Part shown: positions 14,901 through 64,000 of the stretch, in pieces
How positions within the stretch are numbered: the stretch's first letter is position 1
Layout: every line of letters starts with the position of its first letter
Origin: Trypanosoma brucei
Taxonomy: Eukaryota
Assembly (NCBI GenBank): GCA_000002445.1
Contig: CP000068.1
Coordinates: 1,344,001-1,408,000 of the forward strand
Length of the DNA: 64,000 nucleotides
Direction: 5' to 3'
Made by a program: the position numbers and the translations under genes
Notes under the pieces: generated by a model
Database searches by the model: none
Told to the model about the DNA's origin: nothing
What the model saw: the letters and a program-made list of their open reading frames with translations, nothing else

Positions 14901-15925
14901 GGCGTCTTGCTGCTGTGGTTGCTCCACCGCGCCCAAAGTTTGTATCAACAGTGGAAGATGATGATGAAGATCGTGTATCAAACATCGGTGTGCCACTGAC
15001 CGATGGGAAGGGAACCACCGCACCGTAAGTCACGTACGTTGTAGCTGTATGTGTAACATCACATTCCTTGTGTTTGTGTGGTGTGTTTGCATGCATAGAA
15101 TATAATCGGACTAGAAAACACTTTATTTGAGCGTACCCCTGTCCTTGAGTGACACTCTCAGGGGGATGACGCTGCTTAACATTGTGGAGAGGGAGAGACA
15201 CAACAGAGAGTAGAGTAATATGTTTGTGTGCAAGAGATAATAGAAAGGAGGAGGGGTGGTGTGACTCTGTGTCTTGCTTATGTTATTACCTTCCCTCACT
15301 GTTCCCCCCCACACACACATACACACGTACCGGAATCCGTAATATACACGGTATTTGTAGGGGCTGTCCTTTTATTTTCTCTTCCATTGTTTGCTTTGCA
15401 TGTCCCTCACAGTTGTGGTAGAATGAGTGCTCGCACCTGGTGTGTGAGTGTGGGAAGGTTTCATGCACGAGTGTGTATCACTAAAAATGCGGTCAGTAGA
15501 TAACAAAGTGTGTGTTAATCACCTTGTGTGAGTATTTAAATCATATTTGACTCCACCGGGTCTGTGCTTGCTTCTTTCTCTTTGTTTTGATTAACTGGGA
15601 CGCGTTTGACCTTTTTGCAGTGTGCGTTTATATCTGCTGTGCCCGGCATATGGCACACCTTTCTTTCACTACGCTATGTGTTCTGAAGCCCCATTACTCT
15701 CTTTCCGCGAGTACCCCAATTGCATATACTCCTCTTCACTGCTTCCCTCTTTTTTTGTTTAATTTATCTTTTCTTAATTACGTAACTTCTGGTAGTGTCA
15801 GTAATATTCAGACAGTTGAGAGAGAGAGGGGGGGGGGTGGTGAGTTTACCAACCAAGTAAGCCAGCGGTCAGCCCCTTCTGAGGCCCGTGTGGAGTTGCC
15901 TGATGTTTCCATGCACGCATAAGAG
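11995..15925 (+). repeat. Tandem duplication unit A (~3.9 kb; paralogous to 19060..22995): one ~820-aa glycoprotein gene with 5' and 3' flanks
   Basis: Flanks are near-identical, e.g. 'ttcctccagttattgctataaatgttgcaatgcctgttgg' at the left end and '...tccatgcacgcataagaggcagg' at the right end. An internal ~0.8 kb patch has diverged. Confidence 0.85.
12566..15028 (+). CDS. Heavily N-glycosylated type-I membrane glycoprotein, copy A; beta-propeller-like N-terminal domain; family unassigned
   Basis: 820-aa ORF. The signal peptide is probably used from the internal Met (MSLRKLPQLLLLIMIGIAFVAVECIGA). YVTD / FVTARD / LYAATEKELYTVTAT blade-like repeats are present. There are more than 30 NxS/T sequons, including an NTT/NAT-rich stalk. 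The C-terminal TM is IIAFAVVGSLIAACLVVLAVVL, followed by a KRRR stop-transfer and a 45-aa acidic tail. Confidence 0.8.
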   Translation: MAMCFIFGVEMSNLAKRPMSLRKLPQLLLLIMIGIAFVAVECIGAPVKLPRRVDTVAGQFGVEGETNGYPNTTRLTEPYALCRGRTNDEILVGSSNSFRNYSRKTKETGTYLRYNVGDSVISGSSTINKPRSCVRRGSGNHTIIYFVDDQKDIKYIVGDDVSSFSVPTSGSLNAVAVHEGTLYVTDQNNKSVWKCGLGGAGKPQSCEEKKFTSVTLDAKPEGIAVTSKGIFVTARDSSNKGALLWLDMSGGNRKGNVSGGFVDVFSTESGVLYAATEKELYTVTATDTSLSVTSFAGKNTSQCYFPTNGEDIVLCDNSRLLVIEEYEMYVTSKAKHTMRALTLPPVNLTAIFRGRPAPVGYPNTTIMEQFVASLTEDVNKALGTNDSYVDPDSVRVDPDTWETNFTVFVQQTRFDNTTEEKLRSLTYTQTDKTVDEYYGLTDEYVYIDTVLVPFCDDASLVTIQRALAREAGRALNFSLVYADKPITFGSDVAENVTAVKLLMPHSFKNATTPKQLSAANLTDFAHNLVKDLRASDTRVDITFPDPPFNFSAVVPEREQEVRWFVHGKVMKQLEICERLGSQGDAAVIAAAADATARGKANVTLNTSGVKANDTGVGPNTTNTAGGANTTANVAANGTANVIVNPSTNATPTGTTNASVTNTTERAVPVVAPTQPSNGYAECRSAITNRTETQNMEPPYDRKHRYEVFLPKKYDFNVSWCVDIIDWRDLDEMLNNRTDEVVEKSLSWCGHGCIIAFAVVGSLIAACLVVLAVVLTSKRRRLAAVVAPPRPKFVSTVEDDDEDRVSNIGVPLTDGKGTTAP

Positions 15926-16153
15926 GCAGGTAATTTTCCTCGTGACCTTTTTTTTTATGCTGTCTATCTGTCAACTTGTTTCTAATGCTGCTGGAAATAA
16001 TATTTCCTATTTAAAATAGGTGAAGGTTTACGTGCCCGCATAGGTGCACCTGTATGTGTTTTATGAGGTTATATTGTAGTTATGTCAAATATTGTGATCG
16101 TAACTTATATTATTTTCGTCCATTCTAAATGGTTGTGATGGATTTTTCTTTTC

Positions 16154-19059: not shown

Positions 19060-22000
19060 ATTTTCCTCCAGTTATTGCTATAAATGTTGCAATGCCTGTT
19101 GGTAGGCGTCAGCGGTATTCCGTTGTTTGAAGATTCTAATGGACTGTTGTGTTCATTTCCCTAGCGTGGAATCGTGTGTTGAGTGCTTCTAACGTTAATA
19201 CCTCTTTGTATTGTTGCCGCTGCATGCTTTTGAGACTCGCGAGTGATTTGTAACCCGGTATTGTAATACGGTATTTACTGGATGAAATTCTTCTGCAGAT
19301 GCACTGTTCCATCTTTTTAACCCTTTTCTTCGTGTGTAGCATAAGACTCAAAGCCGTGTTGTTGAGACTGTAGGTAGTCGTGTAACTTACTCACCACTGG
19401 ATCACTTGTCACAGGTAGGCAAATAGTAAGGACAGTGTGGTTGAAGGAAGTTTTCCGTTTTTTTTTTTTTAAGGTGCGAATAATCGAGTGAAAGCTACTG
19501 TGTTCTCGTACATACTTGCACTTGATTGGTGTGCAGGTGCGGTTGTATCTGTTTGGCAGTTGCAGTATTTGATCATTTGTTACTGTTAAGTGTTCATAAC
19601 ACTGAGGAAAAGACGGGCGTATCCATATTTGACTGGCAATGTGTTTTATATTTGGTGTTGAGATGAGTAACCTAGCAAAGAGGCCAATGAGCCTGAGGAA
19701 GCTACCACAGCTTCTTTTGCTCATCATGATTGGTATTGCATTTGTTGCGGTTGAGTGCATCGGAGCTCCTGTTAAACTTCCCCGACGCGTGGATACTGTT
19801 GCCGGTCAATTTGGCTTTGATGGAACCACTGATGGGAGTTCGAATGTTTCAATGCTTTCGTCACCCTACGCATTGTGTCGAGGGAGGACAAACGATGAAA
19901 TTTTAGTGGGGAGTTCCAACAGCTTCCGCAACTACTCTCGCAAAACAAAAGAAACTGGTACGTTCCTCAGGGGTGGCCCAACTGGAGGACTCGTCTCCGC
20001 AGACGCTAAAATTAGCAAGCCACGTAGTTGTGTCCGTCGCGGCTCTGGTAATCACACAATCATTTACTTTGTTGACGATCAAAATGGTCTGAAATATATA
20101 AATGACAACGAAATTCAGCACGTTACTGTAGGGAATGGTCTTTCGTTAACTTCCGTCGCTATTTATGAGAAAGATTTATACGTAACAGACCAGAATAACA
20201 AATCGGTGTGGAGGTGTAATGTCGGCGGTGCCGGCAAGCCTCAAAATTGTGAAGAGAAAAAATTCACGGGCCTGACGTTTACTGCAAAACCGGAAGGAAT
20301 TGCCGTGACTTCTAAAGGAATTTTTGTTGCCGCACGCGATTCATCTAACAAGGGAGCTTTGTTGTGGCTGGATATGAATGGTGGTGGCTCAAAGGGAAAT
20401 GTAAGTGGTGGTTTTGTTGATGTATTCAGCACTGAGTCAGGTATGTTATATGCAGCCACGGAGAAGGAATTGTACACCGTCACTGCCACCGGCTCTGCAT
20501 TCAGCGTAACATCATTTGCAGGGAAGAATACGAGCTCATGTTACTCTCATGCCAATGGAGAAGATATTGTATTATGTGACAACTCGCGACTGCTCGTTAT
20601 TGAAGAATATGAGATGTACGTGACTTCGAAGGAGAAGCATACTATGCGTGCCTTAACTCTCCCTCCAGTCAACTTAACCGCCATCTTCCGTGGGCGACCA
20701 GCACCTGTAGGTTACCCCAACACAACAATTATGGAGCAGTTTGTGGCAAGTCTTACGGAGGATGTAAATAAAGCACTCGGTACCAATGATAGCTATGTGG
20801 ACCCCGATTCTGTGAGGGTGGATCCCGATACATGGGAAACGAATTTCACTGTTTTTGTTCAGCAAACGCGTTTTGACAATACGACGGAGGAGAAATTACG
20901 GAGTCTGACATACACACAAACGGATAAGACTGTTGACGAGTATTACGGTCTTACTGATGAGTATGTGTACATTGATACCGTCCTTGTGCCATTCTGTGAC
21001 GATGCAAGCCTTGTCACCATCCAGCGTGCGTTGGCGCGTGAAGCTGGACGTGCACTGAATTTCTCTTTGATATACGCTGACAAGCCCATAACCTTTGGTA
21101 GTGACGTTGCGGAGAATGTCACTGCAGTAAAGCTTTTGATGCCTCATTCATTCAAGAACGCAACGACACCTAAGCAGCTATCGGCTGCGAACCTCACTGA
21201 CTTTGCGCACAACTTGGTCAAGGACTTGCGTGCTTCAGACACTCGTGTCGATATCACATTCCCCGATCCCCCGTTTAATTTTTCAGCTGTTGTCCCTGAA
21301 CGTGAGCAGGAAGTACGTTGGTTTGTCCATGGGAAAGTAATGAAGCAGCTTGAGATTTGTGAGAGACTTGGTAGCCAGGGCGATGCGGCCGTTATTGCAG
21401 CTGCAGCTGCTGCGACTGCTCGAGGTAAGGCCAATGTCACATTGAATACCAGCGGAGTCAAGGCAAATGATACAGGGGTTGGTCCCAACACCACAAATAC
21501 CGCTGGTGGGGCCAATACTACTGCTAATGTTGTCGCTAATGGCACTGCCAATGTTATTGTGAATCCCTCCACCAATGCTACTCCAACTGGAACCACCAAT
21601 GCTAGTGTCACTAATACTACCGAGAGAGCTGTTCCTGTTGTTGCCCCTACTCAGCCTTCTAATGGATATGCGGAGTGTCGATCCGCTATAACCAACCGCA
21701 CGGAAACACAGAACATGGAACCACCTTACGACAGGAAACACCGATATGAGGTATTCCTACCTAAAAAGTATGACTTCAATGTGTCATGGTGCGTGGACAT
21801 CATTGACTGGCGTGACTTGGACGAGATGTTGAATAACCGCACAGATGAGGTGGTGGAAAAGTCCCTTTCATGGTGCGGCCACGGTTGCATTATTGCGTTT
21901 GCGGTGGTAGGTTCCCTGATTGCTGCGTGTCTAGTGGTGCTGGCTGTGGTGTTGACATCGAAGAGGAGGCGTCTTGCTGCTGTGGTTGCTCCACCGCGCC

Positions 22001-22995
22001 CAAAGTTTGTATCAACAGTGGAAGATGATGAAGAAGATCGTGTATCAAACATCGGTGTGCCACTGACCGATGGGAAGGGAACCACCGCACCGTAAGTCAC
22101 GTGCGTTGTAGCTGTATGTGTAACATCACATTCCTTGTGTTTGTGTGGTGTGTTTGCATGCATAGAATATAATCGGACTAGAAAACACTTTATTTGAGCG
22201 TACCCCTGTCCTTGAGTGACACTCTCAGGGGATGACGCTGCTTAACATTGTGGAGAGGAAGAGACACAACAGAGAGTAGAGTAATATGTTTGTGTGCAAG
22301 AGATAATAGAAAGGAGGGGGGGGGGTGGTGTGACTCTGTGTCTTGCTTATGTTATTACCTTCCCTCACTGTTTCCCCCCCCCCCACATACACACGTACCG
22401 GAATCCGTAATATACACGGTATTTGTAGGGGCTGTCCTTTTATTTTCTCTTCCATTGTTTGCTTTGCATGTCCCTCACAGTTGTGGTAGAATGAGTGCTC
22501 GCACCTGGTGTGTGAGTGTGGGAAGGTTTCATGCACGAGTGTGTATCACTAAAAATGCGGTCAGTAGATAACAAAGTGTGTGTTAATCACCTTGTGTGAG
22601 TATTTAAATCATATTTGACTCCACCGGGTCTGTGCTTGCTTCTTTCTCTTTGTTTTGATTAACTGGGACGCGTTTGACCCTTTTGCGGTGTGCGTTTATA
22701 TCTGCTGTGCCCGGCATATGGCACACCTTTCTTTCACTACGCTATGTGTTCTGAAGCCCCATTACTCTCTTTCCGCGAGTACCCCAATTGCATATACTCC
22801 TCTTCACTGCTTCCCTCTTTTTTTTGTTTAATTTATCTTTTCTTAATTACGTAACTTCTGGTAGTGTCAGTAATATTCAGACAGTTGAGAGAGGGGGGGG
22901 GGGAGGAGTTTACCAACCAAGTAAGCCAGCGGTCAGCCCCTTCTGAGACCCGTGTGGAGTTTCCTGATGTTTCCATGCACGCATAAGAGGCAGGC
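19060..22995 (+). repeat. Tandem duplication unit B (paralog of 11995..15925)
   Basis: See unit A. The offset between units is ~7067 bp. Homopolymer G/C tracts differ in length between the two units. Confidence 0.85.
19639..22095 (+). CDS. Heavily N-glycosylated type-I membrane glycoprotein, copy B
   Basis: 818-aa ORF. It is more than 98% identical to copy A over the C-terminal ~490 aa. Between roughly aa 58 and 335 it differs from copy A in patches. Confidence 0.8.
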   Translation: MCFIFGVEMSNLAKRPMSLRKLPQLLLLIMIGIAFVAVECIGAPVKLPRRVDTVAGQFGFDGTTDGSSNVSMLSSPYALCRGRTNDEILVGSSNSFRNYSRKTKETGTFLRGGPTGGLVSADAKISKPRSCVRRGSGNHTIIYFVDDQNGLKYINDNEIQHVTVGNGLSLTSVAIYEKDLYVTDQNNKSVWRCNVGGAGKPQNCEEKKFTGLTFTAKPEGIAVTSKGIFVAARDSSNKGALLWLDMNGGGSKGNVSGGFVDVFSTESGMLYAATEKELYTVTATGSAFSVTSFAGKNTSSCYSHANGEDIVLCDNSRLLVIEEYEMYVTSKEKHTMRALTLPPVNLTAIFRGRPAPVGYPNTTIMEQFVASLTEDVNKALGTNDSYVDPDSVRVDPDTWETNFTVFVQQTRFDNTTEEKLRSLTYTQTDKTVDEYYGLTDEYVYIDTVLVPFCDDASLVTIQRALAREAGRALNFSLIYADKPITFGSDVAENVTAVKLLMPHSFKNATTPKQLSAANLTDFAHNLVKDLRASDTRVDITFPDPPFNFSAVVPEREQEVRWFVHGKVMKQLEICERLGSQGDAAVIAAAAAATARGKANVTLNTSGVKANDTGVGPNTTNTAGGANTTANVVANGTANVIVNPSTNATPTGTTNASVTNTTERAVPVVAPTQPSNGYAECRSAITNRTETQNMEPPYDRKHRYEVFLPKKYDFNVSWCVDIIDWRDLDEMLNNRTDEVVEKSLSWCGHGCIIAFAVVGSLIAACLVVLAVVLTSKRRRLAAVVAPPRPKFVSTVEDDEEDRVSNIGVPLTDGKGTTAP

Positions 22996-24159
22996 ATTTT
23001 TTATTCGTAGTTTGTTTTATAATTTCAGTTGTGCCTTGGAGTTTCGTATGAGAATTTGTGCCCAGAGGGGCTGCTGATGAATGTTTTTTTTTTTAATTTG
23101 TTTTTGTCCTTTGCTCTGCTTAAAGGAACGGGGGTATTGATGACATTTTTGCTTTTTTTTCCAAAAAAAAGGCGTAGCGGGTGTAGCGAGGACGATTCGT
23201 TGTGAAATATATTGAGAGGTTGAACTGTTGTTGTTGGTATATTTTTTTTTGTGTGGTGCGTATGCAAATGCATGACTAACATTCTCATTGACGGCGGAGT
23301 CATAACGTTATCATTGACGGAAAAAGACAGTTTAGATTTTATTATATGATATTTGTGGCCGGGAATGCTTCCAAGCCACAACAGTACAGTTCTATCTTGA
23401 CCCCCACGGTGCAATAGTGGTGTACGGCGTTATTTAAATTTGGAATTTCAACCTTATCAAATTGTGTTTTTCTTGCAACTTAATAGTTTTGGTTGCGGAA
23501 ATACGAGCAAAATACTTGTCGGGAATAAATTTGATATCCACGAAAGAATTGTCATTAAAATTGAGCGGTTCCCTTTATGGAAGCGAGTGCAATGACCGGT
23601 GTCGGAGTGGCCATAGCAGTTGAGACTTTAATGTGAATGATTATGAGTCAACAATCTGTTCCACTAGACAGTTAATGGGCAGGCAGTAAAAGCGGACACA
23701 AAAATACAGTCAATTTGTAAAAACTCCACAGGGAGGACGGCAACGGCAGAGGGTTTGAGAGGAGCCAGAGAAATGATAACTTTTGCTGCCAATGAGATAA
23801 ACTCACCATAACCTCGTGTCAATGGTGCGTTAACAAAGGGATTCGCCCCAATATCTAATCAGTGAGTTAACTTAGGTATAATATGTATGTGCAAACGCAG
23901 CCTTTGATTTTTTTTTTATCGATGTCGTCGTGTTTCTCTTCCCCTCGAAAAAAAAAGAAGGAAAGCCGACGATACCCTTCGGGAGTTAAGAGGATGGTTT
24001 GGTGTCCCTTCTGTGCGTCCAACGAGGTGCGTGCACTTTCCACCGCTAAGTTCTGCGCCTCGCTCACAACCATAAAACAAGAGTCTTTTTTTTCTTTTTG
24101 AATAATGCGCATGCAAACGATCCCGCTTTTCCCCCCTTCCCGTTGGCATTTTCCCCCAT

Positions 24160-24160
<1 letters not shown>

Positions 24161-24195
<35 letters not shown>

Positions 24196-24196
24196 G
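24161..24196. repeat. (CA)n(TA)n microsatellite
   Basis: cacacatacatatatatatatatatatatatatg. Confidence 0.9.
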
Positions 24197-24246
24197 CATA
24201 GAGCAGCCGAAAAACAGCATTTAAGCCAAGGTGCCAACTTGAGCGA

Positions 24247-25434
24247 ATGCGGCATCTTGGCTTTGCTGGCGATAAGAAACGGTCGATGAGCATAGTGGGC
24301 TTGTTTCTTTTTTTATTGGCTTGCGTGTCAGTAGTTGCAACACATGCAAATGGAAGTGTCCTCAGGAGCACGGGATCTGAGGGAAAGGTGTGGTTAGATG
24401 CACCAACTAGTCGGCGAGTCCCATTTAGGAATCCGAGAGTCATTTTTGTTGTTGTTCAGACCCGACCCTCTCCAGGTTGGTGCAGAATGTTAATGACTGC
24501 TGTTGTTACAAATGTGTCGGTAATTTCTATTGGTATGGGTGGGAATTACAGCCACACCATCCGGGCAAACTGGTTATTGAATTTCTTGGATGATGAGGTC
24601 CTCCATGATGATGATGTGTTAGTTATGTTTGATGGTGCGGATACACTTTTCACTGATGGAATCCATCGGAAACGGAAGCTTGACCACTTTATAAAAATGT
24701 CTCCCCCACTGCCTACATTCTTTAACCAAACGGCTATATACAGAGGTGATGCTTGGCCGCCCATGCTTCACACAGCAGAACCGGATTGTTATGCTCCCCA
24801 GCTGAACATCACATACAACCCGAAAAATGAGTCGCATTGGGATCGCTGTGCGAGATTTTATGCCATGGGTCTGTCGGAAGCCAAATCAATTGGTGTTGAG
24901 CGGCTGCTGGGGTTGCCACCTCCCGTGCGTGGACACCTCAACAGTGGAGGAATTGTGGGCCGGGTATGGGCATATAAAGAGGCATTTAGCGTTTTTTTGC
25001 AACTCAGGGAAGCTTCCACTGAATGGTGGTGTGATCAGTCTATTTGGGCTGCCTTATTTATTTGGAGCGTTGGTAGTGCAACGGGTGTGGATTCCAAATA
25101 CATAATACGGCGTGGAATCATTAGTCTTGACTATGACAAGAGATACTTTTACTACCCAACAGATGAATACGATACAAGTTCGGTACTTTTACATTTTACA
25201 GGGGCCCCCGACCGATGGACGTATTACTTTCCAGAATACTTTGTCCGCCTTCCGTGGTATAGGAACCTTATGGGAAACAGTACCTACAGACATAATGTCG
25301 TGGCGGCGTTACGAAATACTTCCATCATAACCTACAACTACACTCGGGAGAGGATTGTAAGGAAATATGAAGATATTTGTGATGTGGAACAGATGACTGA
25401 CCCCGAATTTTTGGTGTACCCACTGAATAAGTAA
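24247..25434 (+). CDS. Type-II membrane GT31-like glycosyltransferase / ESAG3-like protein (395 aa)
   Basis: An N-terminal signal anchor (IVGLFLFLLACVSVVA) and a DDDV motif in 'EVLHDDDVLVMFDGAD', which resembles the DxD motif of beta-1,3-glycosyltransferases. Two degenerate fragments of the same family lie within VSG cassettes at 44180-44770 and 62390-62840. Confidence 0.65.
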   Translation: MRHLGFAGDKKRSMSIVGLFLFLLACVSVVATHANGSVLRSTGSEGKVWLDAPTSRRVPFRNPRVIFVVVQTRPSPGWCRMLMTAVVTNVSVISIGMGGNYSHTIRANWLLNFLDDEVLHDDDVLVMFDGADTLFTDGIHRKRKLDHFIKMSPPLPTFFNQTAIYRGDAWPPMLHTAEPDCYAPQLNITYNPKNESHWDRCARFYAMGLSEAKSIGVERLLGLPPPVRGHLNSGGIVGRVWAYKEAFSVFLQLREASTEWWCDQSIWAALFIWSVGSATGVDSKYIIRRGIISLDYDKRYFYYPTDEYDTSSVLLHFTGAPDRWTYYFPEYFVRLPWYRNLMGNSTYRHNVVAALRNTSIITYNYTRERIVRKYEDICDVEQMTDPEFLVYPLNK

Positions 25435-30080: not shown

Positions 30081-31214
30081 ATGATAATGTGTAAAAAGTT
30101 ACTGGGATTAATTGTGGGGGTTGTTTCGATAATGATGATAACACCCGTGTCCAGCGTAGAGGAAGAAATAGTTAATGAGGGTGAATTTAAGACATTATGT
30201 GATTTTGTCAGCTTAACAGAACGAATAAACGAGTCGCTAGAGTTGATAGAAAAGTCAGGAGTAAGCGTGTCTTTTCTACAAAAAAAAGTTACAGATGTAT
30301 TGTTTGGAACGGGAATTGGGGATGTTAGTAAAATGAAATGGCAACCTCACAGGGATATGGATTGTGGCACTAACAGTGGAAACCGAGCTTTCTGGGCAGG
30401 AGAGGCCCTCGTGAAAGATATTCTTTGTTTGTGCGAAAGGACAGATGGCTTGCACTCGCCACCCGAGCATCTTTGTTATCGTGGAAACAGCAAACGACAT
30501 AACGCTGACAACTGGAAAACCCCTACGAACCGCAAAAATACATGGAATGAACTACAAAATAAGTGCAAAAAGGGAGGTATCGAAGGCGCACCAACAAGGA
30601 CTGAGCTTCAAGATATGAGAAAACAACTCGAGGCAGGTATAAAGAAACGTAACGATTCGCATCACGGTGAGTACTGCATTTACGGAGGGGACAAAACTAA
30701 GACGCTAAGAATCTGCGATGGCCACCGAACAGAAACCAACGGCATTTGCGTAATGTATCCAAGGGGAACTGATGGGGCCAATGCAAGTGGTATTGAATGG
30801 CTTAATAAGCTCGAAAGACTGGTGAAAGAAGTCGAGAAAATAACAAAGGATGAAGGTACAAGCAGGCACACAAAACCAAGTAGTGACGGAGAGCCGAGCA
30901 TGGACGCAAAACCAAACTCAAACTTAAAGCCAAGCACGGAGGGAGAACTCACCATCCGAGCGATCAGACGAACCACGAGAAAAGGGAAACCCAGATGCGC
31001 AAACAACTACCACCACAGAGACAGAGACAGGTTTAACCACGGCAAGACCACCAGAAGAACAAAAGAGTTCAACCAAAATTATTTTACAGTCTATATGGGT
31101 ATTTTTATTTTGGCTGTTTGTATAAATTGGTCCATCATTCAATTGTTTTTATTTTTAAACCTTAATAAGGAAAGTAAGACAAACGCGGGCGCAGAAGACC
31201 AGCGAACAGGATGA
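30081..31214 (+). CDS. Cysteine-rich secreted/surface ESAG-like protein (377 aa); family unassigned
   Basis: Signal peptide (LLGLIVGVVSIMMITPVSS). There are more than 14 Cys in the ectodomain. A basic Lys/Arg-rich region and a C-terminal hydrophobic segment (YMGIFILAVCINWSIIQLFLFL) with a short polar tail are present. Confidence 0.6.
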   Translation: MIMCKKLLGLIVGVVSIMMITPVSSVEEEIVNEGEFKTLCDFVSLTERINESLELIEKSGVSVSFLQKKVTDVLFGTGIGDVSKMKWQPHRDMDCGTNSGNRAFWAGEALVKDILCLCERTDGLHSPPEHLCYRGNSKRHNADNWKTPTNRKNTWNELQNKCKKGGIEGAPTRTELQDMRKQLEAGIKKRNDSHHGEYCIYGGDKTKTLRICDGHRTETNGICVMYPRGTDGANASGIEWLNKLERLVKEVEKITKDEGTSRHTKPSSDGEPSMDAKPNSNLKPSTEGELTIRAIRRTTRKGKPRCANNYHHRDRDRFNHGKTTRRTKEFNQNYFTVYMGIFILAVCINWSIIQLFLFLNLNKESKTNAGAEDQRTG

Positions 31215-42094: not shown

Positions 42095-43636
42095 TCAGAG
42101 CAAATTTTTGGTTACGAAAAAACTCGAAAAGCGGCACTCGGGATTGGGAAGTTTGCCTGTACCATCAACAAAATCAATCCATCCGCATACTGCTTTCTGA
42201 CCCGGTTTTACATCCTTGTTTTCCGCTTCACAGGCTTGCTGGGTTTGTTGTTTATTGCAATCTACCCCGGTACTTGTCTCTCCTGCTCCTGTTGCTGTGG
42301 TTCCTGTTCCTGGTTTAGGTTTGCATTCCTTTGTGGTGTCATCATAGTCGCAGTTGGTGGTTGGGCACTCTGCTGGGGTGGTGTTTTTCTTTGGGCATTT
42401 TATTTGCGTGTTTAGTGTTGGGTTTTCAGGCGCTGTGTTTCCCGTCTGGGTTGCTGGTGGGTTTGCTGCTGTCTCGTAAAGGCTGTGCATGGACTCGGCT
42501 AGTGATATTAGTTTAGTCCGCTGGTGTGTCAGCTTCCTGAGCAACTGCTTTCGCTCCACTAGTTTTTTCCGGGCTTCCATTAACCTGCCGTACCATTTTA
42601 TGGCTTGCCCTATCTTTGTCCTGGTGTTTTGCTTGAACGCTGCGGCGTAGTTTACGCAGCTGTGTTCCGAGGCCTGGTTACCTGTGCACTGAGTTGTTCC
42701 ATCCTGGCCTTTGCCGTATGCGAAGTTTCCTTTGTCGGTCGCGCTCCCTAAAGTATATCGGCCTAGTAATGTTGTGAATGCGTGTAGTTGGGTTGTTATC
42801 GTCGTCGGCGTAAGCGGCTGTGCTTCGGCGGTCTGTTCACAAATGGAGTGGAGTGTTTTGTAGATGGTTACCCCATTGCTAGCCGTGTTGTAGTCAGTGT
42901 TGTACGTGATGCCTTGTGTGTGGGCCGTGCAGACTGACAAAGTACTTGTTGCTGTTGAAGATCCGGTGCCGCAGAGACACGCCATGTCTGAAGCTAGCTA
43001 CTTTCCTGGCCCGTTTAGCGTTACACACGCTGCTGTGTATGTCGCCGTAAAGGCATCTGCTGGTATGTCCGTGAAAGCTCCTTTTCCGGCCCTAGCGCCG
43101 CCGAGCAAGGCGCTGCGAGTTGCTGCTCTGATGTTATCCGCGTTGGTGGAGAGTTCTTCTGTTGTTTTCTTGATCGCGTCTCTGATCTGGCCGGCTCTGT
43201 TGTGTGTCACGTCCAAGAGCTTGAGCGTTGCCACCGGTATATCTTTGTGTTTGACACGTCTGTATTTCTGCTTGGCTCCTGTGTCGGCAATGGCTACATT
43301 GTCAAATTTAGACCGCGTTTGCAGCCACTGATTGATCCTGTTCTGCTTCTGACTAGCGTCTTCTTCACCAGTGCCAGCATTTGGTTCGGGTCCGTTATCG
43401 TAATACGTGTCATTGGCGGTTAAGGTAAAGATTGTGTCGATTGTTGTTTCTGCTGCCTTTGCAGCTTCTGTTAAGTCGGGCTCATCATCGTCTTTGATTT
43501 CTTCCTTCTTTAGCATCACATCCATGTGACAGAATAGGTTGAACTCCGGGCCGTTGAGTGCCTCCCCTGCTGATTGGCCGAGTTTGGTTGTGCAGCACAT
43601 GGTTAGTGCTAGGAGAAGATAGAGCAATTTGAACAC
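42095..43636 (-). pseudogene. VSG: VSG (VSG-1 of array), ~513 codons with a single in-frame TAG
   Basis: N-terminal signal peptide and domain (MFKLLYLLLALTMCCTTKLGQ...), then C-terminal domains (…CDYDDTTKECKPKPG…CGW…). The N-terminal and C-terminal ORFs are in the same frame and are separated only by TAG at 42998-43000 (…NGPGK*LASDMACL…). Confidence 0.85.
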
Positions 43637-44179
43637 ACACCTTTAGAGCTAAAATAAATTATTACAAATACGCTAAGCAGTGGATTTGTAAATGTTTTAA
43701 GCTGTTTTCCCTGCCGTTGTGCGCCGGTATGGCGGCGCTCGGGAACAATAATACAGCGCAAGTGATACGACGTTGTCAAAAAACAAGGGATTTTCGTTTT
43801 ATAAGCATAAAAAAGATAATGTATTAGTGTCTAGACTGCTGCAGGAAAATAGCCTAATTTTTATAATTTCTTAGCTTAAAACAATCCATTCGTTAAAACG
43901 CTACACCACAAACATTCACATATTTATAATCAACCTCATGTCTGCTTACCGCAAAATTTTGAAATTTCTACAAATCTTGCTCAACATATATTTTTACTTC
44001 CATATCTTTATACCAAGTAAGATTTTTCACAATAAATTTTGCTTTTTAGTCCCATACAATAGTGTGTCTAAGAGAATAAATAAGTAGAACTACTCTAATC
44101 CAACCACCAAATGAAATCGAAAAAAAACTCTTCATAATCCAATCCAAACATCCCTCTCTTTAAAACAAACCTTTCACCA

Positions 44180-44770
44180 ACAGCTTCTACCTGAATTGCA
44201 CTCCATATTAGCAACGGTTTGTGAATACTCTGCTCTGACCACCAATCCTCACTTCCCTTTAGTAACTCTCCAAAAGCATATTCAAATTTCTTAAAAGCCC
44301 ATACTCTGGCTATTAAACCACCACCACTAAGATAAGATTTTCCACTAGGAGGTGATTTTAGAAAATGAGTTAACTTTTTATCCTCTTCTTTTCTGTAACC
44401 TACATTAAAAAATCAATAACATCTATCTGTAAATGCTCTTTGTGATCTGAGTTCATAAGCAAATCCAACTGAGGAGCATAACACTCAGCTGTCGACATGA
44501 ATAGAACTGGAGATTTTTCCTTCTCTTTTACTATATCCTCTCCATTAAACTTCTCTTCATTTTCAGCAGTATTTTGTATAAAATATTCCACTGCATTTTC
44601 GTACTTCTGTCCGTCAGTAACAATAACATCAGATCCATCCAAATGAATTAAAACATCCTCATCACTTGCATTATGTCTTTCTGAAAATTTCATAACCCAT
44701 CTAGGTCTATTAACATGGCTATACAAACCTGGCATTGCAGTTGTGATAATTTCAACATGGCTTAGTTGGC
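44180..44770 (-). pseudogene. GT31-like / ESAG3-like glycosyltransferase pseudogene fragment in the VSG-1 co-transposed region
   Basis: Its translation (…DEDVLIHLDGSDVIVTDG…AECYAPQLD…) parallels the 24247..25434 protein (…DDDVLVMFDGADTLFTDG…PDCYAPQLN… and RVWAYKEAF). It is frameshifted and truncated. Confidence 0.7.
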
Positions 44771-45774
44771 ACTCAATATGAGCCTACACCATCATTGAGT
44801 TGCATGAGTTTGAGCTACAACAACAAAGACTCTGTATTTTTTGACTCCTTCTGCGTTATGTTTGCCGTTTTGTTCTCTTAAATTTGATATTGAACCTATA
44901 CACACTGGGTGTAATAACAATGGTAATTGTATAGTTGTCAAGATTCCAAATTTCATTTCCTTATACACCTTTAAAATTTAAGAGGGTTGTAAAACATTTT
45001 AAACTTATTTAGATGCATCAATAATTTGCTTAGTTGGTGAAAACTTTTTTGCATATATAAGTAATGCGTTGATATTTTTAGTATGTAGTTTTTAAAGGAT
45101 GAATGGTCAATGTGCATCTACAGATCTTGTTTTAGAAGATATCTTTATCCATAGCTGTGATATTACACTACACGTGTTTCACTAGTTACTGCATTCACAT
45201 TTTCTTTTTATGCATTGTTATGGGAATAGCAGTAGTTAGTTACACTGATCAATTACTATGTGCACACAATTTCACATAATTTCTTGTACTATTCAACGCG
45301 GTTATTCGTCTTAATCATGGCAAACCCATTACTCTTGCATTACAAAATACTCCTACTTCTGTGGATAGGATCATCTACACTGCTTCATCCTTTCATTTTT
45401 CTGTAAATAAGGTGCATCATCGTCTCCAGACATCTAATTTTTTATGTGCTATGTTGTCGTTTCATTTCGTATTTTACCCTTTTCCTTTGTCATTCACTGC
45501 CTTATCACTGAAGATGATGTGACGAATCCATTTATCCTCTACACTAAATTCTGTCTTTCACTCATATCCCACTCTATCATTTTCTTGTTTATGATTATGC
45601 TTAGTCTCATTTTTGTAGGTAAAACCGCTCATTTTTCATTTCCATGTCTCGTTATATTCCTGCACTTTCTTTATTAACGTCCAATTTCTGCACCCTCTCT
45701 TTTACTCATTTTCCTACTCACTCATTTACACCAATTACCTCTTTGACATTGTGTTAAGTGATTTTATTCGCCTA

Positions 45775-45905
45775 CACATTAGGCTATCAGCACTTCTGTT
45801 ATTATAATATTCGTATATACACACACTCACAACACTCTCCTATCATCATTATTATTACTATTATTATTGTTATTATTATTACTATCTCAACCATAACTAA
45901 TATCC
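45775..45905 (-). repeat. 70-bp repeat tract (1-2 units) upstream of VSG-1
   Basis: attataatattcgtatatacacacactcacaacactctcctatcatcattattattact… is the reverse complement of the canonical T. brucei 70-bp repeat core (TTGTGAGTGTGTGTATATACGAATATTATAAT) and includes a TAA/ATT triplet tract. Confidence 0.8.
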
Positions 45906-56270: not shown

Positions 56271-56405
56271 ATTTTTATTATTGTAACGGTAACTGTTATT
56301 CATAAAATAGGCAAAAAAGCTTTTATCAATAATTCTTAAAAGTGTTATTCTTGATGTAAAATTTGCAAGCAGAAGAGATTCCTTGTTTATTCTAATAAAA
56401 TTACT

Positions 56406-59339: not shown

Positions 59340-59800
<461 letters not shown>

Positions 59801-60027: not shown

Positions 60028-61886
60028 CTAGAACTCTACTATACTTACAAAAGCAGCAGCCATACACAGAGCCAATTTCTTATTGACGAGGAGACTGAAA
60101 TCTTTGCAAGTTTCGCCTTCCCATTTGCAGCCATTTTCACAGTTTTTTATTGGTTTATTTGGAGCACTTTTTACCTTCAGAGTTTGTTCCTGCTTCTTCT
60201 CCTGTTCCTTGACGTTTTTCCTCTTCTCCATCTTTGGTTTTGCAGTAGTTTCCTGTTGTATCTGTGGTGCTATTCCATATGCAGTTATTTTCTGCTGCGC
60301 AGGTTGCGTTTGTTTTGTGTTTGTTTCAGTCTCTTTCCGCGACTTCTTTATTTGTTTTGTTATCCCCACCAGGTCCTGGACTGCTGCTTCCAGTTGCCGC
60401 TGCTGCATAAGCTGTTTCTTTCAGTGCTTCGAGGCTGGTTACGAGAACTTCCGCTTTTAGGTTTGCTTGTTCCAACCCCCTTAGTGCCTCTGCTGCTTTT
60501 GCTGTCTCTGTTTCTCATTCTATCGTCGGAAAGCCTTTGCCTGCTGTGGCTGCTTCCTGGTACTGTACACACATTCCTCCGTTTGTCTCCGATTTTCCAC
60601 TACAACCGCCTGTGCCGGTTCCTTCTAGGTAGCCGAGACCGAAGTATTTGCCGCCACCACTGCCTTGCGGCTTTGAAATATGGTTGTTGAAGGCGATTAC
60701 GGCGCTTTCTATGGCTGTTGCCGTTGCCGCTTTGGGTTTGAGCTTTTTTGAGCTCGGTCCAGCGTGCACTGTGTAAATCGGGTTGCCGTCCTTTGCCGCT
60801 GACCAGGTTGTGGCACCTGCTGGCATTGTGCAGTCCTGGCAGCACGTTTTATCTTTCAAGTCGGTGGCGGTTGATTTCGCTCACAGACAAAGAAAGTCGA
60901 CCCTTATCGACGTCCCTGCTTTTGATCCCTTTAGTCCTTGAGTTTTCCCGCATTCCGGCTTTCTATCCGCTGTGTTTGCTGGAAAGTCGGGATCTGCGGC
61001 CTTTTTGGTGCCGTATATCGCCTTGTCGCGGGCCGTTTCGAATTCAGCTTGCTAAGTTGCTGGGTCGGTGATTACCGTTGATGTCGTTGCTTGGAAGGCT
61101 TTTTCTGCGTAATACTTTAGACGTTGTTTTGTGTTGTCTGGTAGCTTGTCTGCTCCCTGGCGGTTCCGGCCACCTCAACGCGGTGCCAGGGTCCAGTACC
61201 CAGTATCATCGGGGGAAGCCAAGAGCCAGCAGCGTTCCTTTCATGGGGAACAATGCTTTGCTCCGGCTACGGCATCATACAGCACAAGGATCAGCAGCGT
61301 CTTGCTGGGACACCGTTTTTCACTTGTCGGACCCTCGGCACGTGGCTAGCGTGTCATCAGCAGTATCATCCGCACTAAGATGCTGCTGTCCGGTGATGTG
61401 GAAGAGAATCCCGGCCCGTCGTTGCGCGGGATGCAGTGGAACTGCGCCGGGCTATCTCAAGGAAAGAGATTAGCACTCCACAAAACCCTTGTTGATTATG
61501 AGCTTGTCTGCTGTTGGTACATGGTCGTTTTTCTGCATGTTCTTCAGCATCTTGGCACTGGAGACCCAGAAATCATAGTATTTGTCCCACGTCCTTTGCT
61601 GTTCCCCAGCTTCTGCAGGGCGTTTTGTGTGCGCTGTTTTCGCCGGCGGCGGGTCTTCGCTGAACAGCGCTTTGAAACTGGCGCTGGACGCGGACATGTT
61701 GAGCGCACCAATACTGTTCGCGAATCTTTGTACTGCTGCTTTGACATCAGCAGCTACCACTGGTGCTTCTAACGCATTGTAAACAATACACAAGACGTCA
61801 AAAGCTTGTGCATTGGTTCCTGCTTTTGTCGCTAAGACGCCTTGGTTGCTTAAAAGTTGGAGGTTTGTCATAGCGACTAGCACCAC
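60028..61886 (-). pseudogene. VSG: VSG pseudogene (VSG-6) with in-frame stops and frameshifts, interrupted by an antisense ingi/RIME 5' fragment
   Basis: N-terminal domain (MVLVAMTNLQLLSNQGVLATKAGTNAQAFDVLC… at 61470-61886). A mid region (…DKAIYGTKKAADPDFPANTADRKPECGKTQGLKGSKAGTS…) carries a TAG. The C-terminal domain and GPI signal (…CKWEGETCKDFSLLVNKKLALCMAAAFVSIVEF) lie at 60028-60408. Confidence 0.8.
61163..61490 (+). mobile_element. ingi/RIME 5'-end fragment (~330 bp) encoding a 2A-like peptide and the start of the AP-endonuclease domain
   Basis: The '+' frame reads MLLSGDVEENPGPSLRGMQWNCAGLSQGKRLALHKTLVDYELV. D(V)EENPGP is the canonical 2A motif known at the N-terminus of ingi/L1Tc ORFs, and QWNC(A/N)GL opens the APE domain. 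Its first ~240 nt are homologous to 40450-40687 ('-'). Confidence 0.7.
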
Positions 61887-62389
61887 AAGTCCTACAGTGA
61901 AGATCTGCCTGCCGTGCTGTACCTACAACTTGCGTCTGTTTTTGCTATCTAACGTTTTCGCCAGAAGAAAGCCACAAACATTTAAAAAAAGTATAGATGT
62001 TGGCGAAAATGCTATATATGCAGCATCTAAAGTTGCACTTTGTTGCTTTGGGTTTCCATGTCTTTGACTTTTACACTTTCTTAGCCGTAAAAAATTTCCT
62101 TTCTTTGAAAGCGCCCCCACAAATTCTTTCATATCGAAAATCCCAATTCTCTCCACCTAATACATAAGTTTCTATTTTCTCCATATCCTTCGAATGAAAT
62201 TGTCTTTATTTTAACTCTTTATACCAAGTAAGATTTTTTACAATTAACTTCGATTTATCTTCCCAGGCAATTGCAGGTCCCGGAAAATGAATGAATGGAA
62301 CCTTTCCAACATCCCACTGAGCAGAGTAGAAAAGAAAAGCCCCTCATAATATAGGCCAATTATTACTCTCTCTACAAAACAAATATCTT

Positions 62390-62840
62390 TGCCCAACAGC
62401 TTCTTCTTGAATTACACTCCAAATTAGCAACGGTTTGTTGATACTTTCTTTTGACCACCATTCCTAACATCCTTTAAGAAACTCTCCAAATGCATTTTCA
62501 TATTTCTTAAACACCCAGACTCTTGCTCTTAATCCACTGCCACTAAGATAAGGGTTTCCCATTAGGAGGTGAATTTAGTAAGTGAAGTAATTTTTTATCC
62601 ACTTCTTTCCTGTAGCCAGCATCGAAAAACCAACAACATCTCTTCACATGCTCTTTTTGAATATGCTCTTCACTGAACTTATCTTCACTTTCTGCAGTAC
62701 TTTGCACAAAAGTCACTGGCAGCTGTTTCTTTCGTTTACTTGCTACATAGCTGGCGGTTAAAAACTCCACAAAATTTATCGCTGTTTGCCGGATACCGTT
62801 GGTGAAAAATTTTTTGTTGCAGTTTTTCATCGACTAGTGT
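62390..62840 (-). pseudogene. GT31-like / ESAG3-like pseudogene fragment in the VSG-6 co-transposed region
   Basis: DNA is homologous to 44183-44470 and to 24247..25434. Its translation includes …FVQSTAESEDKFSEEHIQKEH… and …GNPYLSGSGLRARVWVFKKYENAF…. Confidence 0.7.
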
Positions 62841-63939: not shown

Positions 63940-64000
63940 TCTCATTACATCATGATTGCGTAAACACTCACAATACTCTCCTATCATTACTCCTAACATT
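63940..64000 (-). repeat. Degenerate 70-bp repeat unit (upstream of VSG-6) at the window edge
   Basis: ctcattacatcatgattgcgtaaacactcacaatactctcctatcattac. Confidence 0.5.

What the first reader, a model, noticed from the sequence alone, without database searches (positions are those of the whole stretch)
24247..25434. Intact GT31-like (DDDV) glycosyltransferase/ESAG3-like gene, with degenerate copies inside two VSG cassettes
The intact 395-aa type-II membrane protein carries a 'HDDDVLVMFDGAD' motif reminiscent of the beta-1,3-glycosyltransferase DxD motif. Frameshifted fragments of the same family lie at 44180-44770 and 62390-62840, in each case between the 70-bp repeats and the VSG (VSG-1 and VSG-6). 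The 70-bp / fragment / VSG architecture is therefore conserved, and these pseudogenes are probably co-duplicated or co-converted with the VSG cassettes. Whether the family is ESAG3 or the UDP-Gal/GlcNAc transferase family cannot be settled from sequence alone.
Basis: partly seen in the sequence, partly recalled or inferred. Interest (0 to 1): 0.5.

Follow-up and report, generated by a model that had tools for sequence, protein, structure and literature searches.

The report
Annotated ESAG3-related glycosyltransferase gene, ESAG3 pseudogenes
The intact gene is an already-annotated Trypanosoma brucei "GRESAG3", an ancestral, chromosome-internal relative of the expression-site enzyme ESAG3 (reported in a 2026 preprint to put glucose on the parasite's surface coat), and the two fragments are decayed copies of ESAG3 proper sitting upstream of silent coat-protein genes; this is a known gene family correctly recognised, not a new one.

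Summary

The AF2 model is a GT-A fold closest to the LH3/PLOD3 glucosyltransferase domain. Every catalytic residue published for ESAG3 is kept: DXXD D129/D132, G234-G235, W261, D263/Q264 and H316. The functional motif is therefore DGAD, not the adjacent DDDV, which is not conserved. Both ESAG3 ring-interface residues are replaced (H54->R73, W345->I370). dN/dS of 0.07-0.24 indicates a working gene.

The two fragments are real but are not copies of this gene. They are pseudogenes of ESAG3 sensu stricto on the minus strand (43869-44956, nearly full length; about 62074-62830, 5'-degenerate). Each lies between a 70-bp repeat unit and a B-type VSG pseudogene.

Homology between the two cassettes ends before the VSG, so co-duplication with the VSG is not supported. 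The arrangement has published precedent in BES7 and BES15. Verdict: already known, modest interest.

The parts
24247..25434 (+). Intact GRESAG3 coding sequence (395 aa + stop); identical to T. b. brucei TREU927 XP_845129.1 / Q57X45
   Evidence: ORF; exact database match; homologs; dN/dS 0.07-0.24
24283..24348 (+). Only hydrophobic segment (aa 13-34, SMSIVGLFLFLLACVSVVATHA) behind a basic N-terminus: a signal anchor (type II) or a signal peptide
   Evidence: Kyte-Doolittle maximum 2.49 at aa 13-14; AF2 helix 12-36 followed by a low-confidence linker 33-57; topology itself inferred
24604..24645 (+). HDDDVLVMFDGADT (aa 120-133): acidic loop + beta-strand + metal-binding motif
   Evidence: conservation table
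24631..24642 (+). DXXD metal-binding motif D129-G-A-D132 (= ESAG3 D110/D113 = LH3 D112/D115)
   Evidence: Pairwise mapping; in-register LH3 alignment; D129 71/71 and D132 70/71 conserved; residue roles from bioRxiv 10.64898/2026.01.27.701950
24946..24951 (+). Gly-rich loop G234-G235 (= ESAG3 G215-G216 = LH3 G167-G168)
   Evidence: G234 74/74
25027..25038 (+). W261-C-D263-Q264: UDP-pocket Trp and acidic-polar pair (= ESAG3 W242, E244/Q245; LH3 D191/Q192)
   Evidence: D263 71/73, Q264 72/73
25192..25194 (+). H316, C-terminal metal-ligand His (= ESAG3 H297 = LH3 H253)
   Evidence: 69/71
24085..24207 (+). Polypyrimidine tracts (24085-24100, 24120-24160) followed by AG dinucleotides (24197-24207): candidate trans-splice acceptor region about 40 nt upstream of the first ATG
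   Evidence: Read directly from the sequence; function inferred from general trypanosome mRNA processing, not tested
43869..44956 (-). ESAG3 sensu stricto pseudogene 1: covers ESAG3 aa 1-366, at least 3 frameshifts plus in-frame stops; 76-83% aa identity to BES ESAG3 in the middle; retains SDEDVLIHLDGSD and WWSEQ
45790..45900 (-). Single 70-bp repeat unit (perfect core at 45820-45839) 864 bp upstream of ESAG3psi-1
42095..43636 (-). B-type VSG pseudogene (two ORFs: VSG_B N-domain, Trypan_glycop_C) 233 bp downstream of ESAG3psi-1
62074..62830 (-). ESAG3 sensu stricto pseudogene 2: ESAG3 aa ~118/129-368, 46-61% identity, frameshift, stops, internal deletion; the DXXD region is lost
63961..63987 (-). 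Degenerate 70-bp repeat unit upstream of ESAG3psi-2 (23/24 match to the unit at 45823-45846); the window ends at 64000
60028..61886 (-). B-type VSG pseudogene in pieces (VSG_B N-domain 61470-61886 and 60515-60859; C-domain 60028-60408), interrupted by a RIME/ingi fragment

Best explanation
24247-25434(+) is a functional GRESAG3 gene. It belongs to the ancestral, chromosome-internal clade of the trypanosome ESAG3 family (Fam53). It lies on the plus-strand gene run about 13-17 kb before the strand switch (between the ESAG1-family gene ending at 37069 and the first minus-strand VSG pseudogene at 42095) into a minus-strand subtelomeric VSG array.

It most likely encodes a secretory-pathway GT-A glycosyltransferase: a short basic N-terminus, one hydrophobic anchor or signal segment, a linker, a luminal catalytic domain and nine N-glycosylation sequons. 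I infer that it works like ESAG3 and the human LH3 glucosyltransferase domain. In that scheme D129/D132 (DXXD) and H316 hold Mn2+ with the UDP-sugar diphosphate, G234-G235 and W261 line the nucleotide-sugar pocket, and D263/Q264 position the sugar and acceptor for a retaining transfer.

Both residues that build the ESAG3 octadecamer dimer contact are replaced (H54->R73, W345->I370). It carries an N-terminal hydrophobic segment that may act as a membrane anchor, instead of ESAG3's short signal peptide. I therefore infer a different oligomeric state, and probably a different acceptor or donor, from ESAG3.

Shown here: identity, family and clade, fold, conservation of the catalytic residues, purifying selection. 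Inferred: enzymatic activity, metal and donor, topology, oligomeric state.

The two fragments are decayed ESAG3 sensu stricto genes occupying the co-transposed region between a 70-bp repeat unit and a B-type VSG pseudogene. They are old (74-75% DNA identity to each other over the 3' half) and act at most as passive homology blocks for recombination.
For: Identity: exact match to XP_845129.1/AAZ11570.1/Q57X45 (TREU927); 99% orthologs in T. b. gambiense and T. equiperdum.

Family: all 9 word-indexed hits are Trypanosoma ESAG3/ESAG-like proteins. A profile search found 86 relatives, including BES ESAG3 (P0017, E=5e-92).

Clade: the NJ tree groups the window gene with chromosome-internal T. brucei paralogs, apart from the ESAG3 s.s. 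clade. This agrees with PMC6152948.

Catalytic residues: P0017 carries all residues published for ESAG3 at exactly the published numbers, and the window protein conserves D129, D132, G234, G235, W261, D263, Q264, H316, Y101, H103 and Y182 (roles from the preprint). These positions are near-invariant in 74 family representatives.

Selection: dN/dS is 0.24 against a 76%-identical paralog (0.18 in codons 61-330) and 0.07 against the T. equiperdum ortholog.

Secretory features: one hydrophobic segment at aa 13-34 and 9 sequons.

Interface residues: R73 and I370 replace H54 and W345 in ungapped local alignment, and neither His nor Trp is among the common residues at these columns across the 74 representatives.

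Fragments.
Against: No biochemical or expression data exist for this gene. The ESAG3 biochemistry comes from a single preprint. The model is only moderately confident: four of the five AF2 models had pLDDT below 53, and residues 179-233 and 300-320 are weak. Sequence-level similarity to LH3 is not significant on its own (E=0.5). Cleaved signal peptide versus signal anchor was not resolved. Loss of H54/W345 does not prove loss of oligomerisation.
Confidence: 0.8

Rival explanations
1. One reading: the gene is a GT31/GT67-type beta-1,3-Gal/GlcNAc transferase whose DDD(V) is the DxD motif.
Against: No Pfam Galactosyl_T or Fringe hit even at E<=1. GT31 structures score far below LH3/R699 and are absent from the significant Foldseek hits. 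The DDD triplet is not conserved in homologs, whereas the downstream DXXD/DXD is universal. All named homologs are ESAG3-family.
Confidence: 0.02
2. The gene is a redundant second copy of the ESAG3 activity itself: an initiating alpha-O-glucosyltransferase for VSG Ser/Thr.
For: Complete conservation of the ESAG3 catalytic set and the same LH3-like fold.
Against: The preprint reports that ESAG3 depletion alone abolishes VSG3 O-glycosylation, so GRESAG3 genes do not compensate. At 31% protein identity and with no DNA similarity, RNAi cross-targeting is unlikely. GRESAG3 orthologs exist in T. cruzi, T. grayi and T. theileri, which from general knowledge have no VSG coat, so the ancestral acceptor cannot be a VSG. 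The interface residues and the N-terminus differ.
Confidence: 0.07
3. The gene is an intact but non-functional or non-catalytic relic (a pseudoenzyme or a silent gene) at the edge of the subtelomere.
For: It lies next to a decaying VSG array and near ESAG1- and VSG-like ORFs. No expression evidence was obtained here.
Against: dN/dS is 0.18-0.24 against the paralog and 0.07 against the ortholog. All catalytic residues are intact. The ORF is intact in three subspecies. It sits on the plus-strand run with adenylate cyclase and amidohydrolase genes, not in the minus-strand array.
Confidence: 0.08
4. For the fragments: each ESAG3 pseudogene was co-duplicated or co-converted together with its downstream VSG as one cassette.
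For: The order 70-bp unit / ESAG3psi / VSG_B is the same in both cassettes. Spacing is nearly colinear: offsets of 18,141 bp at the 70-bp unit versus 18,211-18,215 bp in the ESAG3psi. The spacer shows weak similarity (z=7.7). BES7 and BES15 of Lister 427 carry an 'ESAG3 psi 3' of 70-bp repeat' (PMC2567434), as expected if such modules can be copied into expression sites with a VSG.
Against: Within the window, homology stops at the end of the ESAG3psi; the ESAG3psi->VSG spacer and the VSG N-terminal regions are unrelated (z about 0). The two pseudogenes are only 74-75% identical in DNA and 44% in conceptual protein, so there has been no recent common duplication. In syntenic T. b. gambiense, only the 5' half of ESAG3psi-1 is shared (82%), while the 3' half and the VSG differ. 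Recombination there breaks inside the pseudogene and does not carry it as one unit with the VSG.
Confidence: 0.25

Closest known systems
T. brucei expression-site ESAG3 (ESAG3 sensu stricto; e.g. CAQ57304.1, P0017 cluster), reported as a Mn2+-dependent UDP-glucose:VSG alpha-O-glucosyltransferase (bioRxiv 10.64898/2026.01.27.701950)
   Same: Same protein family (Fam53) and same LH3-like GT-A fold. Same catalytic set: DXXD, GG loop, Trp, acid-Gln pair, C-terminal His, and the cavity-lining Y/H/Y residues. N-glycosylation sequons are present, suggesting a secretory-pathway location.
   Different: Only 30-31% identity. The acidic residue is Asp (as in LH3 and in 71/73 family members), not Glu. The ring-interface residues H54/W345 are replaced by R73/I370. 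It has a longer basic N-terminus with a 22-aa hydrophobic segment instead of a short signal peptide. It is located outside expression sites on a plus-strand gene run. Its clade has members in T. cruzi, T. grayi, T. vivax and T. theileri. Activity is untested.
Human LH3/PLOD3 N-terminal glycosyltransferase domain (PDB 6FXR, 6WFV, 8ZGC)
   Different: 15-20% identity and not significant by sequence alone (E=0.5). The window protein has no accessory or lysyl-hydroxylase domains (395 aa, no Pfam hit). It has an extra C-terminal helical/beta region (aa ~320-395) that is conserved only within the trypanosome family.
Acanthamoeba polyphaga mimivirus R699 (PDB 9DYT/9E92)
   Different: 15-18% identity; viral protein. 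I did not examine its function or motifs, so the relationship is established at fold level only.
T. brucei GT67 / CAZy GT31 beta-1,3-glycosyltransferases
   Same: General GT-A fold and an acidic motif after a beta-strand; type-II-like layout.
Other T. brucei GRESAG3 paralogs (XP_827729.1/Q38CS1 75-76%; XP_823172.1, XP_823173.1, XP_951520.1 about 35%)
   Same: Same clade and same motifs, with a similar length and N-terminal hydrophobic segment.
   Different: Distinct loci. This copy is the last conserved gene before the subtelomere; the T. equiperdum chromosome assembly ends 4.6 kb after it.

Membership tests
ESAG3 family / Fam53 (broad sense) | Significant full-length sequence similarity to named ESAG3 / ESAG3-like proteins | tested here: met
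   Identical to XP_845129.1; hits P0001-P0009 at E=3e-276 to 5e-58; BES ESAG3 P0017 matches the gene at E=3e-62, 31% over 318 aa
ESAG3 family / Fam53 (broad sense) | GT-A fold closest to the LH3/PLOD3 GT domain | tested here: met
ESAG3 family / Fam53 (broad sense) | Metal-binding DXXD, C-terminal His, Gly-rich loop, pocket Trp, acidic-Gln pair (ESAG3 D110/D113, H297, G215-216, W242, E244/Q245) | tested here: met
   D129/D132, H316, G234-235, W261, D263/Q264; family-wide conservation
ESAG3 family / Fam53 (broad sense) | Mn2+-dependent UDP-glucose transferase activity | not testable with these tools
   Known only for BES ESAG3 (preprint)
GRESAG3 clade | Groups with chromosome-internal paralogs and with genes from non-brucei trypanosomes, apart from the ESAG3 s.s. 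expansion | tested here: met
   NJ tree; T. cruzi, T. grayi, T. vivax and T. theileri homologs at 34-36%; definition from PMC6152948. The tree is distance-based without bootstrap.
GRESAG3 clade | Located outside expression sites, in the chromosome core or at the core/subtelomere boundary | tested here: met
   On the plus-strand run with adenylate cyclase and amidohydrolase genes; no 70-bp repeats or VSG on its strand immediately nearby; colinear at 96% with T. equiperdum
ESAG3 sensu stricto (expression-site type) - intact gene | High identity to BES ESAG3; octadecamer interface residues H54 and W345 | tested here: not met
   30-31% identity; R73 and I370 at those positions; separate clade
ESAG3 sensu stricto - the two fragments | Closest to BES ESAG3, with the ESAG3-specific residues (His at position 54; WWSEQ with Glu) | tested here: met
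   Fragment 1 is 76-83% identical and fragment 2 is 46-61% identical to P0017. Fragment 1 keeps QTHATQ and WWSEQ; fragment 2 has the decayed form WWSKES. Both cluster with P0017. Both are disrupted by frameshifts and stops, hence pseudogenes.
CAZy GT31 / T. brucei GT67 | Match to the Galactosyl_T (PF01762) or Fringe profile | tested here: not met
   No such hit at E<=1
   D121 52/74, D122 25 D and 17 E; canonical ESAG3 has SDED; the invariant pair is D129/D132
CAZy GT31 / T. brucei GT67 | Closest structural neighbours are GT31 enzymes | tested here: not met
LH3/PLOD multifunctional enzymes | GT domain followed by an accessory domain and a 2-oxoglutarate/Fe(II) lysyl hydroxylase domain | tested here: not met
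   395 aa with no Pfam domain hit; sequence similarity to LH3 is sub-threshold (E=0.5). It works like the LH3 GT domain but is not a PLOD family member.

The most novel reading that the evidence does not exclude
This GRESAG3 could be a membrane-anchored, non-ring-forming retaining hexosyltransferase with its own specificity. One candidate role is the missing enzyme that extends the ESAG3-initiated O-glucose on class B VSGs to di- or tri-hexose. Another is an O-glycosyltransferase for other surface proteins, conserved since before VSGs existed. Separately, the ESAG3 pseudogenes in the co-transposed region of B-type VSGs (2 of 3 B-type and 0 of 3 other cassettes here; also BES7, which holds VSG3) might act as upstream homology blocks that bias which VSGs are converted and where conversion tracts begin. 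The breakpoint inside ESAG3psi-1 between T. b. brucei and T. b. gambiense is consistent with that.
Probability: 0.12. Interest if true: 0.6.

Novelty: already known. Interest (0 to 1): 0.25.

Why it matters
The gene itself is in the reference annotation and its family has been described, so there is no discovery here.

The value lies in the correction.

The comparison with the newly characterised ESAG3 also gives concrete, testable predictions for the roughly 50 uncharacterised GRESAG3 genes. The catalytic machinery is intact, the acidic residue is the ancestral Asp, the octadecamer interface residues are absent, and the N-terminus looks like a membrane anchor. If GRESAG3 enzymes prove to be the extenders of VSG O-glycans, or general O-glycosyltransferases of trypanosomatids, this copy would be a convenient single-locus representative.

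Tried and rejected
(1) Pfam scan of the intact protein gave only a chance CDC48_2 hit at E=0.13; ESAG3 has no Pfam model.

(2) The search for homologous proteins with 200 aa of fragment 1 returned only a T. b. gambiense 'hypothetical, unlikely' ORF (P0010). It missed BES ESAG3 despite 76-83% identity. The exhaustive profile search recovered ESAG3 (P0017).

(3) The PDB sequence search found no ESAG3 entry, and LH3 only at E=0.5. Fold comparison was needed.

Source names for the distant relatives were mostly absent because they come from Logan/ENA assemblies.

(5) The lookup of the TREU927 paralog P0093 was not on record, so the T. b. gambiense copy (P0094, L003) was used for dN/dS.

(6) The first attempt at a 74-sequence alignment timed out and was rerun with faster settings.

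(7) I considered whether fragment 2 is a full-length but degenerate copy. The ESAG3psi 5' parts of the two cassettes do not align (z=0.2), so a 5' truncation or deletion is the simpler reading, although the conserved 70-bp-to-ESAG3psi offset leaves this open.

(8) I considered the second in-frame ATG (codon 14), which would give a classical signal peptide. It was not adopted, because polypyrimidine tracts and AG sites lie upstream of the first ATG. It is not excluded.
Full report
**Observation**

The ORF at 24247-25434 on the plus strand is real: 395 codons, an ATG start and no interruptions. The quoted motif HDDDVLVMFDGADT is residues 120-133, nt 24604-24645.

The gene is single-copy at the DNA level in the window. 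tblastn with its product finds two minus-strand regions, at 44119-44765 (two frames, E=9e-19 and 1e-17) and 62119-62574 (E=6e-9). So the fragments exist and are well above chance.

**Identity of the intact gene**

The protein is an exact match to XP_845129.1 / AAZ11570.1 / Q57X45, "expression site-associated gene (ESAG) protein, putative", of T. b. brucei TREU927, on a 1,608,198-bp record. There are 99%-identical orthologs in T. b. gambiense DAL972 and T. b. equiperdum. From the order of the T. b. gambiense accessions (FN554968.1) I infer chromosome 5; this was not checked.

All word-indexed homologs are Trypanosoma proteins named ESAG3, ESAG3-like or ESAG-like. They comprise a 75%-identical paralog, about 35% paralogs in T. 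brucei, and 34-36% homologs in T. cruzi, T. grayi, T. vivax and T. theileri. Pfam has no model for the family and gives no Galactosyl_T hit.

**Link to ESAG3 proper**

An exhaustive profile search found 86 relatives. One of them, P0017 (368 aa), represents the cluster holding the Lister 427 expression-site ESAG3 proteins such as CAQ57304.1.

A preprint dated 2026-09-15 (bioRxiv 10.64898/2026.01.27.701950) reports the following for ESAG3:
- It is a Mn2+-dependent, UDP-glucose-specific, retaining O-glucosyltransferase that modifies VSG3.
- It has a GT-A fold closest to LH3/PLOD3.
- Its catalytic residues are D110/D113 (DXXD), H297, G215-216, W242 and E244/Q245.
- It is a soluble ER protein that forms an octadecameric ring, with H54 and W345 at the dimer interface.

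P0017 carries every one of these residues at exactly those numbers. The window protein is 31% identical to P0017.
- **Conserved:** D129/D132, G234/G235, W261, D263/Q264 and H316, plus the cavity-lining residues Y101, H103 and Y182.
- **Replaced:** H54->R73 and W345->I370, both in ungapped local alignment.

**Fold**

The AF2 model built from the nine-sequence family alignment has pTM 0.75 and mean pLDDT 73.4. This is moderate confidence, and the other four models were poor.

Foldseek against the PDB returns LH3 entries in the first ten places (E=3e-7 to 6e-6), then mimivirus R699, then GT6 enzymes and CMP-KDO synthetases.

By sequence alone LH3 is sub-threshold (E=0.5). The alignment is nonetheless in register at FDGAD/VDSYD and LNSGG/LNSGG.

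**Which motif matters**

Across 74 family representatives:

| Position | Conservation |
|---|---|
| D129 | 71/71 |
| D132 | 70/71 |
| G234 | 74/74 |
| D263 | 71/73 |
| Q264 | 72/73 |
| H316 | 69/71 |
| D123 | 65/70 |
| D121 | 52/74 |
| D122 | 25 D and 17 E |

Canonical ESAG3 reads SDED at this position.

More distant relatives have a one-residue-shorter DxD (D[STA]D). Canonical ESAG3 is one of only two sequences with Glu instead of Asp at the D263 position, so the window gene keeps the ancestral, LH3-like state.

**Is it a working gene?**

- Against the T. b. gambiense copy of its closest paralog (L003), dN=0.149 and dS=0.633, giving a ratio of 0.24. The ratio is 0.18 over codons 61-330.
- Against the T. 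equiperdum ortholog there are 10 nucleotide differences, of which 2 are nonsynonymous, giving a ratio of 0.07.
- There are nine N-x-S/T sequons.
- The single hydrophobic segment (aa 13-34) follows a basic N-terminus (R2, K10, K11, R12). A low-confidence linker and then the catalytic domain from about residue 62 come after it.

This layout is typical of type-II Golgi/ER glycosyltransferases. A cleaved signal peptide (...VATHA|NG) is not excluded.

Polypyrimidine tracts and AG dinucleotides lie 40-160 nt upstream of the first ATG. That is compatible with use of the first ATG, but this is an inference.

**Clade**

A distance tree places the window gene with chromosome-internal T. brucei paralogs. 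ESAG3 sensu stricto forms its own long-branched clade.

This reproduces published knowledge. Fam53 comprises ESAG3 (in expression sites and at subtelomeric loci, where most copies are pseudogenes) and a less numerous, divergent, ancestral GRESAG3 clade with orthologs in other trypanosomatids (PMC6152948). The preprint counts 50 intact GRESAG3 genes, none tested, and proposes them as possible extenders of the O-glucose.

**The fragments**

Using P0017 as the query:
- **Fragment 1** spans 44956->43869 and covers ESAG3 residues 1-366 in frames -1, -3, -2 and -3. Identity is 76-83% in the middle. It has in-frame stops, for example THATQ*WCR.
- **Fragment 2** spans 62710->62074, covering residues 129-368 at 46-61% identity. 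A recognisable remnant extends to about 62830, and the fragment has an internal deletion, a frameshift and stops.

Both cluster with BES ESAG3. Fragment 1 keeps the ESAG3-specific residues: His at position 54 and WWSEQ. They are thus ESAG3 sensu stricto pseudogenes and not relics of the intact GRESAG3, to which their conceptual proteins are 23-27% identical.

**Cassette architecture**

Fragment 1 lies 864 bp downstream (minus-strand sense) of a single 70-bp repeat unit with a perfect core at 45820-45839. It lies 233 bp upstream of a B-type VSG pseudogene at 43636-42095.

Fragment 2 lies downstream of a degenerate 70-bp unit at 63961-63987, at the window edge, and about 190 bp upstream of a fragmented B-type VSG pseudogene at 61886-60028.

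The other four VSG cassettes in the window have 70-bp repeats but no detectable ESAG3 remnant.

The arrangement has published precedent. Hertz-Fowler et al. 2008 list "ESAG3 psi 3' of 70-bp repeat" for BES7 (VSG 427-3) and BES15 (PMC2567434).

**Co-duplication test**

- At the DNA level the two cassettes share the 70-bp unit and 452 bp of the ESAG3psi 3' half at 75% identity.
- The offsets, 18,141 bp versus 18,211-18,215 bp, are nearly constant.
- Global alignments against dinucleotide shuffles give z=123 for the ESAG3psi 3' half and z=7.7 for the 70-bp-to-ESAG3psi spacer. They give z of about 0 for the ESAG3psi-to-VSG spacer and for the VSG N-terminal 600 bp.

So an old [70-bp - spacer - ESAG3] module is shared, but the VSGs are unrelated.

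In the syntenic T. b. gambiense region (L001), the strand-switch DNA is 93-95% identical to the window. An ESAG3psi is present at the same place, but only its 5' half matches (82%). Its 3' half (the P0010 ORF) and the downstream VSG are different sequences. That places a recombination breakpoint inside the pseudogene.

"Involved in recombination of the cassette" remains possible.

**Mechanism**

I commit to the following, at about 0.8 for the family/enzyme assignment and lower for the details. The gene encodes a luminal GT-A retaining glycosyltransferase that binds Mn2+ and a UDP-sugar through D129/D132/H316. G234-G235 and W261 form the nucleotide-sugar pocket, and D263/Q264 act at the sugar/acceptor site, as in LH3 and ESAG3.

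It lacks the ESAG3 ring-interface pair and appears membrane-anchored. It is therefore probably not an octadecamer, and it probably has a different acceptor.

Because homologs exist in trypanosomes without VSG coats, the ancestral acceptor is not a VSG. ESAG3 depletion alone abolishes VSG3 O-glycosylation (preprint), so it is not a redundant initiator. The donor sugar, the acceptor, the localisation and the oligomeric state are all inferred and untested.

**Verdict**

This is an already-annotated member of a described family. The GT31 label, the choice of motif, the relationship between the intact gene and the fragments, and the co-duplication idea all need correction. Interest is modest (0.25), mainly because ESAG3 biochemistry is very recent and the GRESAG3 enzymes are still untested.

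Noticed in passing
window 61155-61500 (+) and 40479-40690 (inverted copy): A RIME/ingi-type retroelement 5' fragment sits inside the VSG pseudogene at 60028-61886. The ORF at 61380-61772 starts MLLSGDVEENPGPSLRGMQWNCAGLSQGKRLALH, which carries a 2A-like DxExNPGP signature (identification from memory of ingi/L1Tc). A 232-bp copy at 80% identity lies in inverted orientation at 40479-40690, in the strand-switch region.
   Followed up: partly
L001 (T. b. gambiense FN554968.1 1317249-1337812) vs window 36167-44992: The region is syntenic. The strand-switch DNA is 93-95% identical, but the ESAG1-family gene is only 73.5% identical. The ESAG3 pseudogene matches only in its 5' half (82%), and its 3' half and the downstream VSG are replaced. 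This is evidence of segmental recombination with a breakpoint inside the ESAG3 pseudogene.
   Followed up: partly
window 42095-43636, 60028-61886, 56406-57686 (VSG_B); 49808-50527 (A-type): Both ESAG3psi-linked VSGs are B-type. One further B-type VSG and the A-type or unclassified VSGs in the window have no ESAG3 remnant. BES7, which carries the class B VSG3 (the published ESAG3 substrate), also has an ESAG3psi 3' of its 70-bp repeats (PMC2567434). The numbers are far too small for a test.
   Followed up: no
window 11995-15937 and 19061-23001 (+): A roughly 4-kb tandem duplication (95.4% DNA identity) carries two paralogous ORFs of 820 and 818 aa (91% protein identity), with only a weak NHL-repeat hint in Pfam. 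It lies just upstream of the GRESAG3 gene.
   Followed up: partly
window 16-933, 3737-7468, 9734-11293 (+): Two receptor-type adenylate cyclase genes (GRESAG4-like; one cut by the window start) and an amidohydrolase gene lie on the same plus-strand run as the GRESAG3 gene.
   Followed up: no
window 30081-31214 (+) and 36095-37069 (+): A VSG_B-domain ORF (377 aa) and an intact ESAG1-family ORF (324 aa, Pfam ESAG1 E=4e-105) lie on the plus strand between the GRESAG3 gene and the strand switch. They are outside any expression site.
   Followed up: no
proteins P0032, P0034, P0042-P0076: The wider family contains a distant clade of 500-720-aa proteins with a DxD (D[STA]D) motif instead of DXXD, but with the same LNxG..RVWA, W.CDQS and His motifs. 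Most come from unnamed read-archive assemblies, so their organisms are unknown. Whether the family is really restricted to kinetoplastids could not be checked.
   Followed up: partly
L002 (T. equiperdum CM010676.1 1389829-1405620): The T. equiperdum chromosome assembly ends 4.6 kb after the orthologous GRESAG3 gene. This gene is therefore the last assembled conserved gene before the subtelomere in that genome.
   Followed up: no
window 54806-56298 and 59500-59739: There is a large 70-bp-repeat array of about 1.5 kb (units of 74-119 bp with TAC/TAT-rich expansions) between two VSGs. Within another 70-bp repeat region there is an (ATA/TAT)n run of about 80 copies.
   Followed up: no
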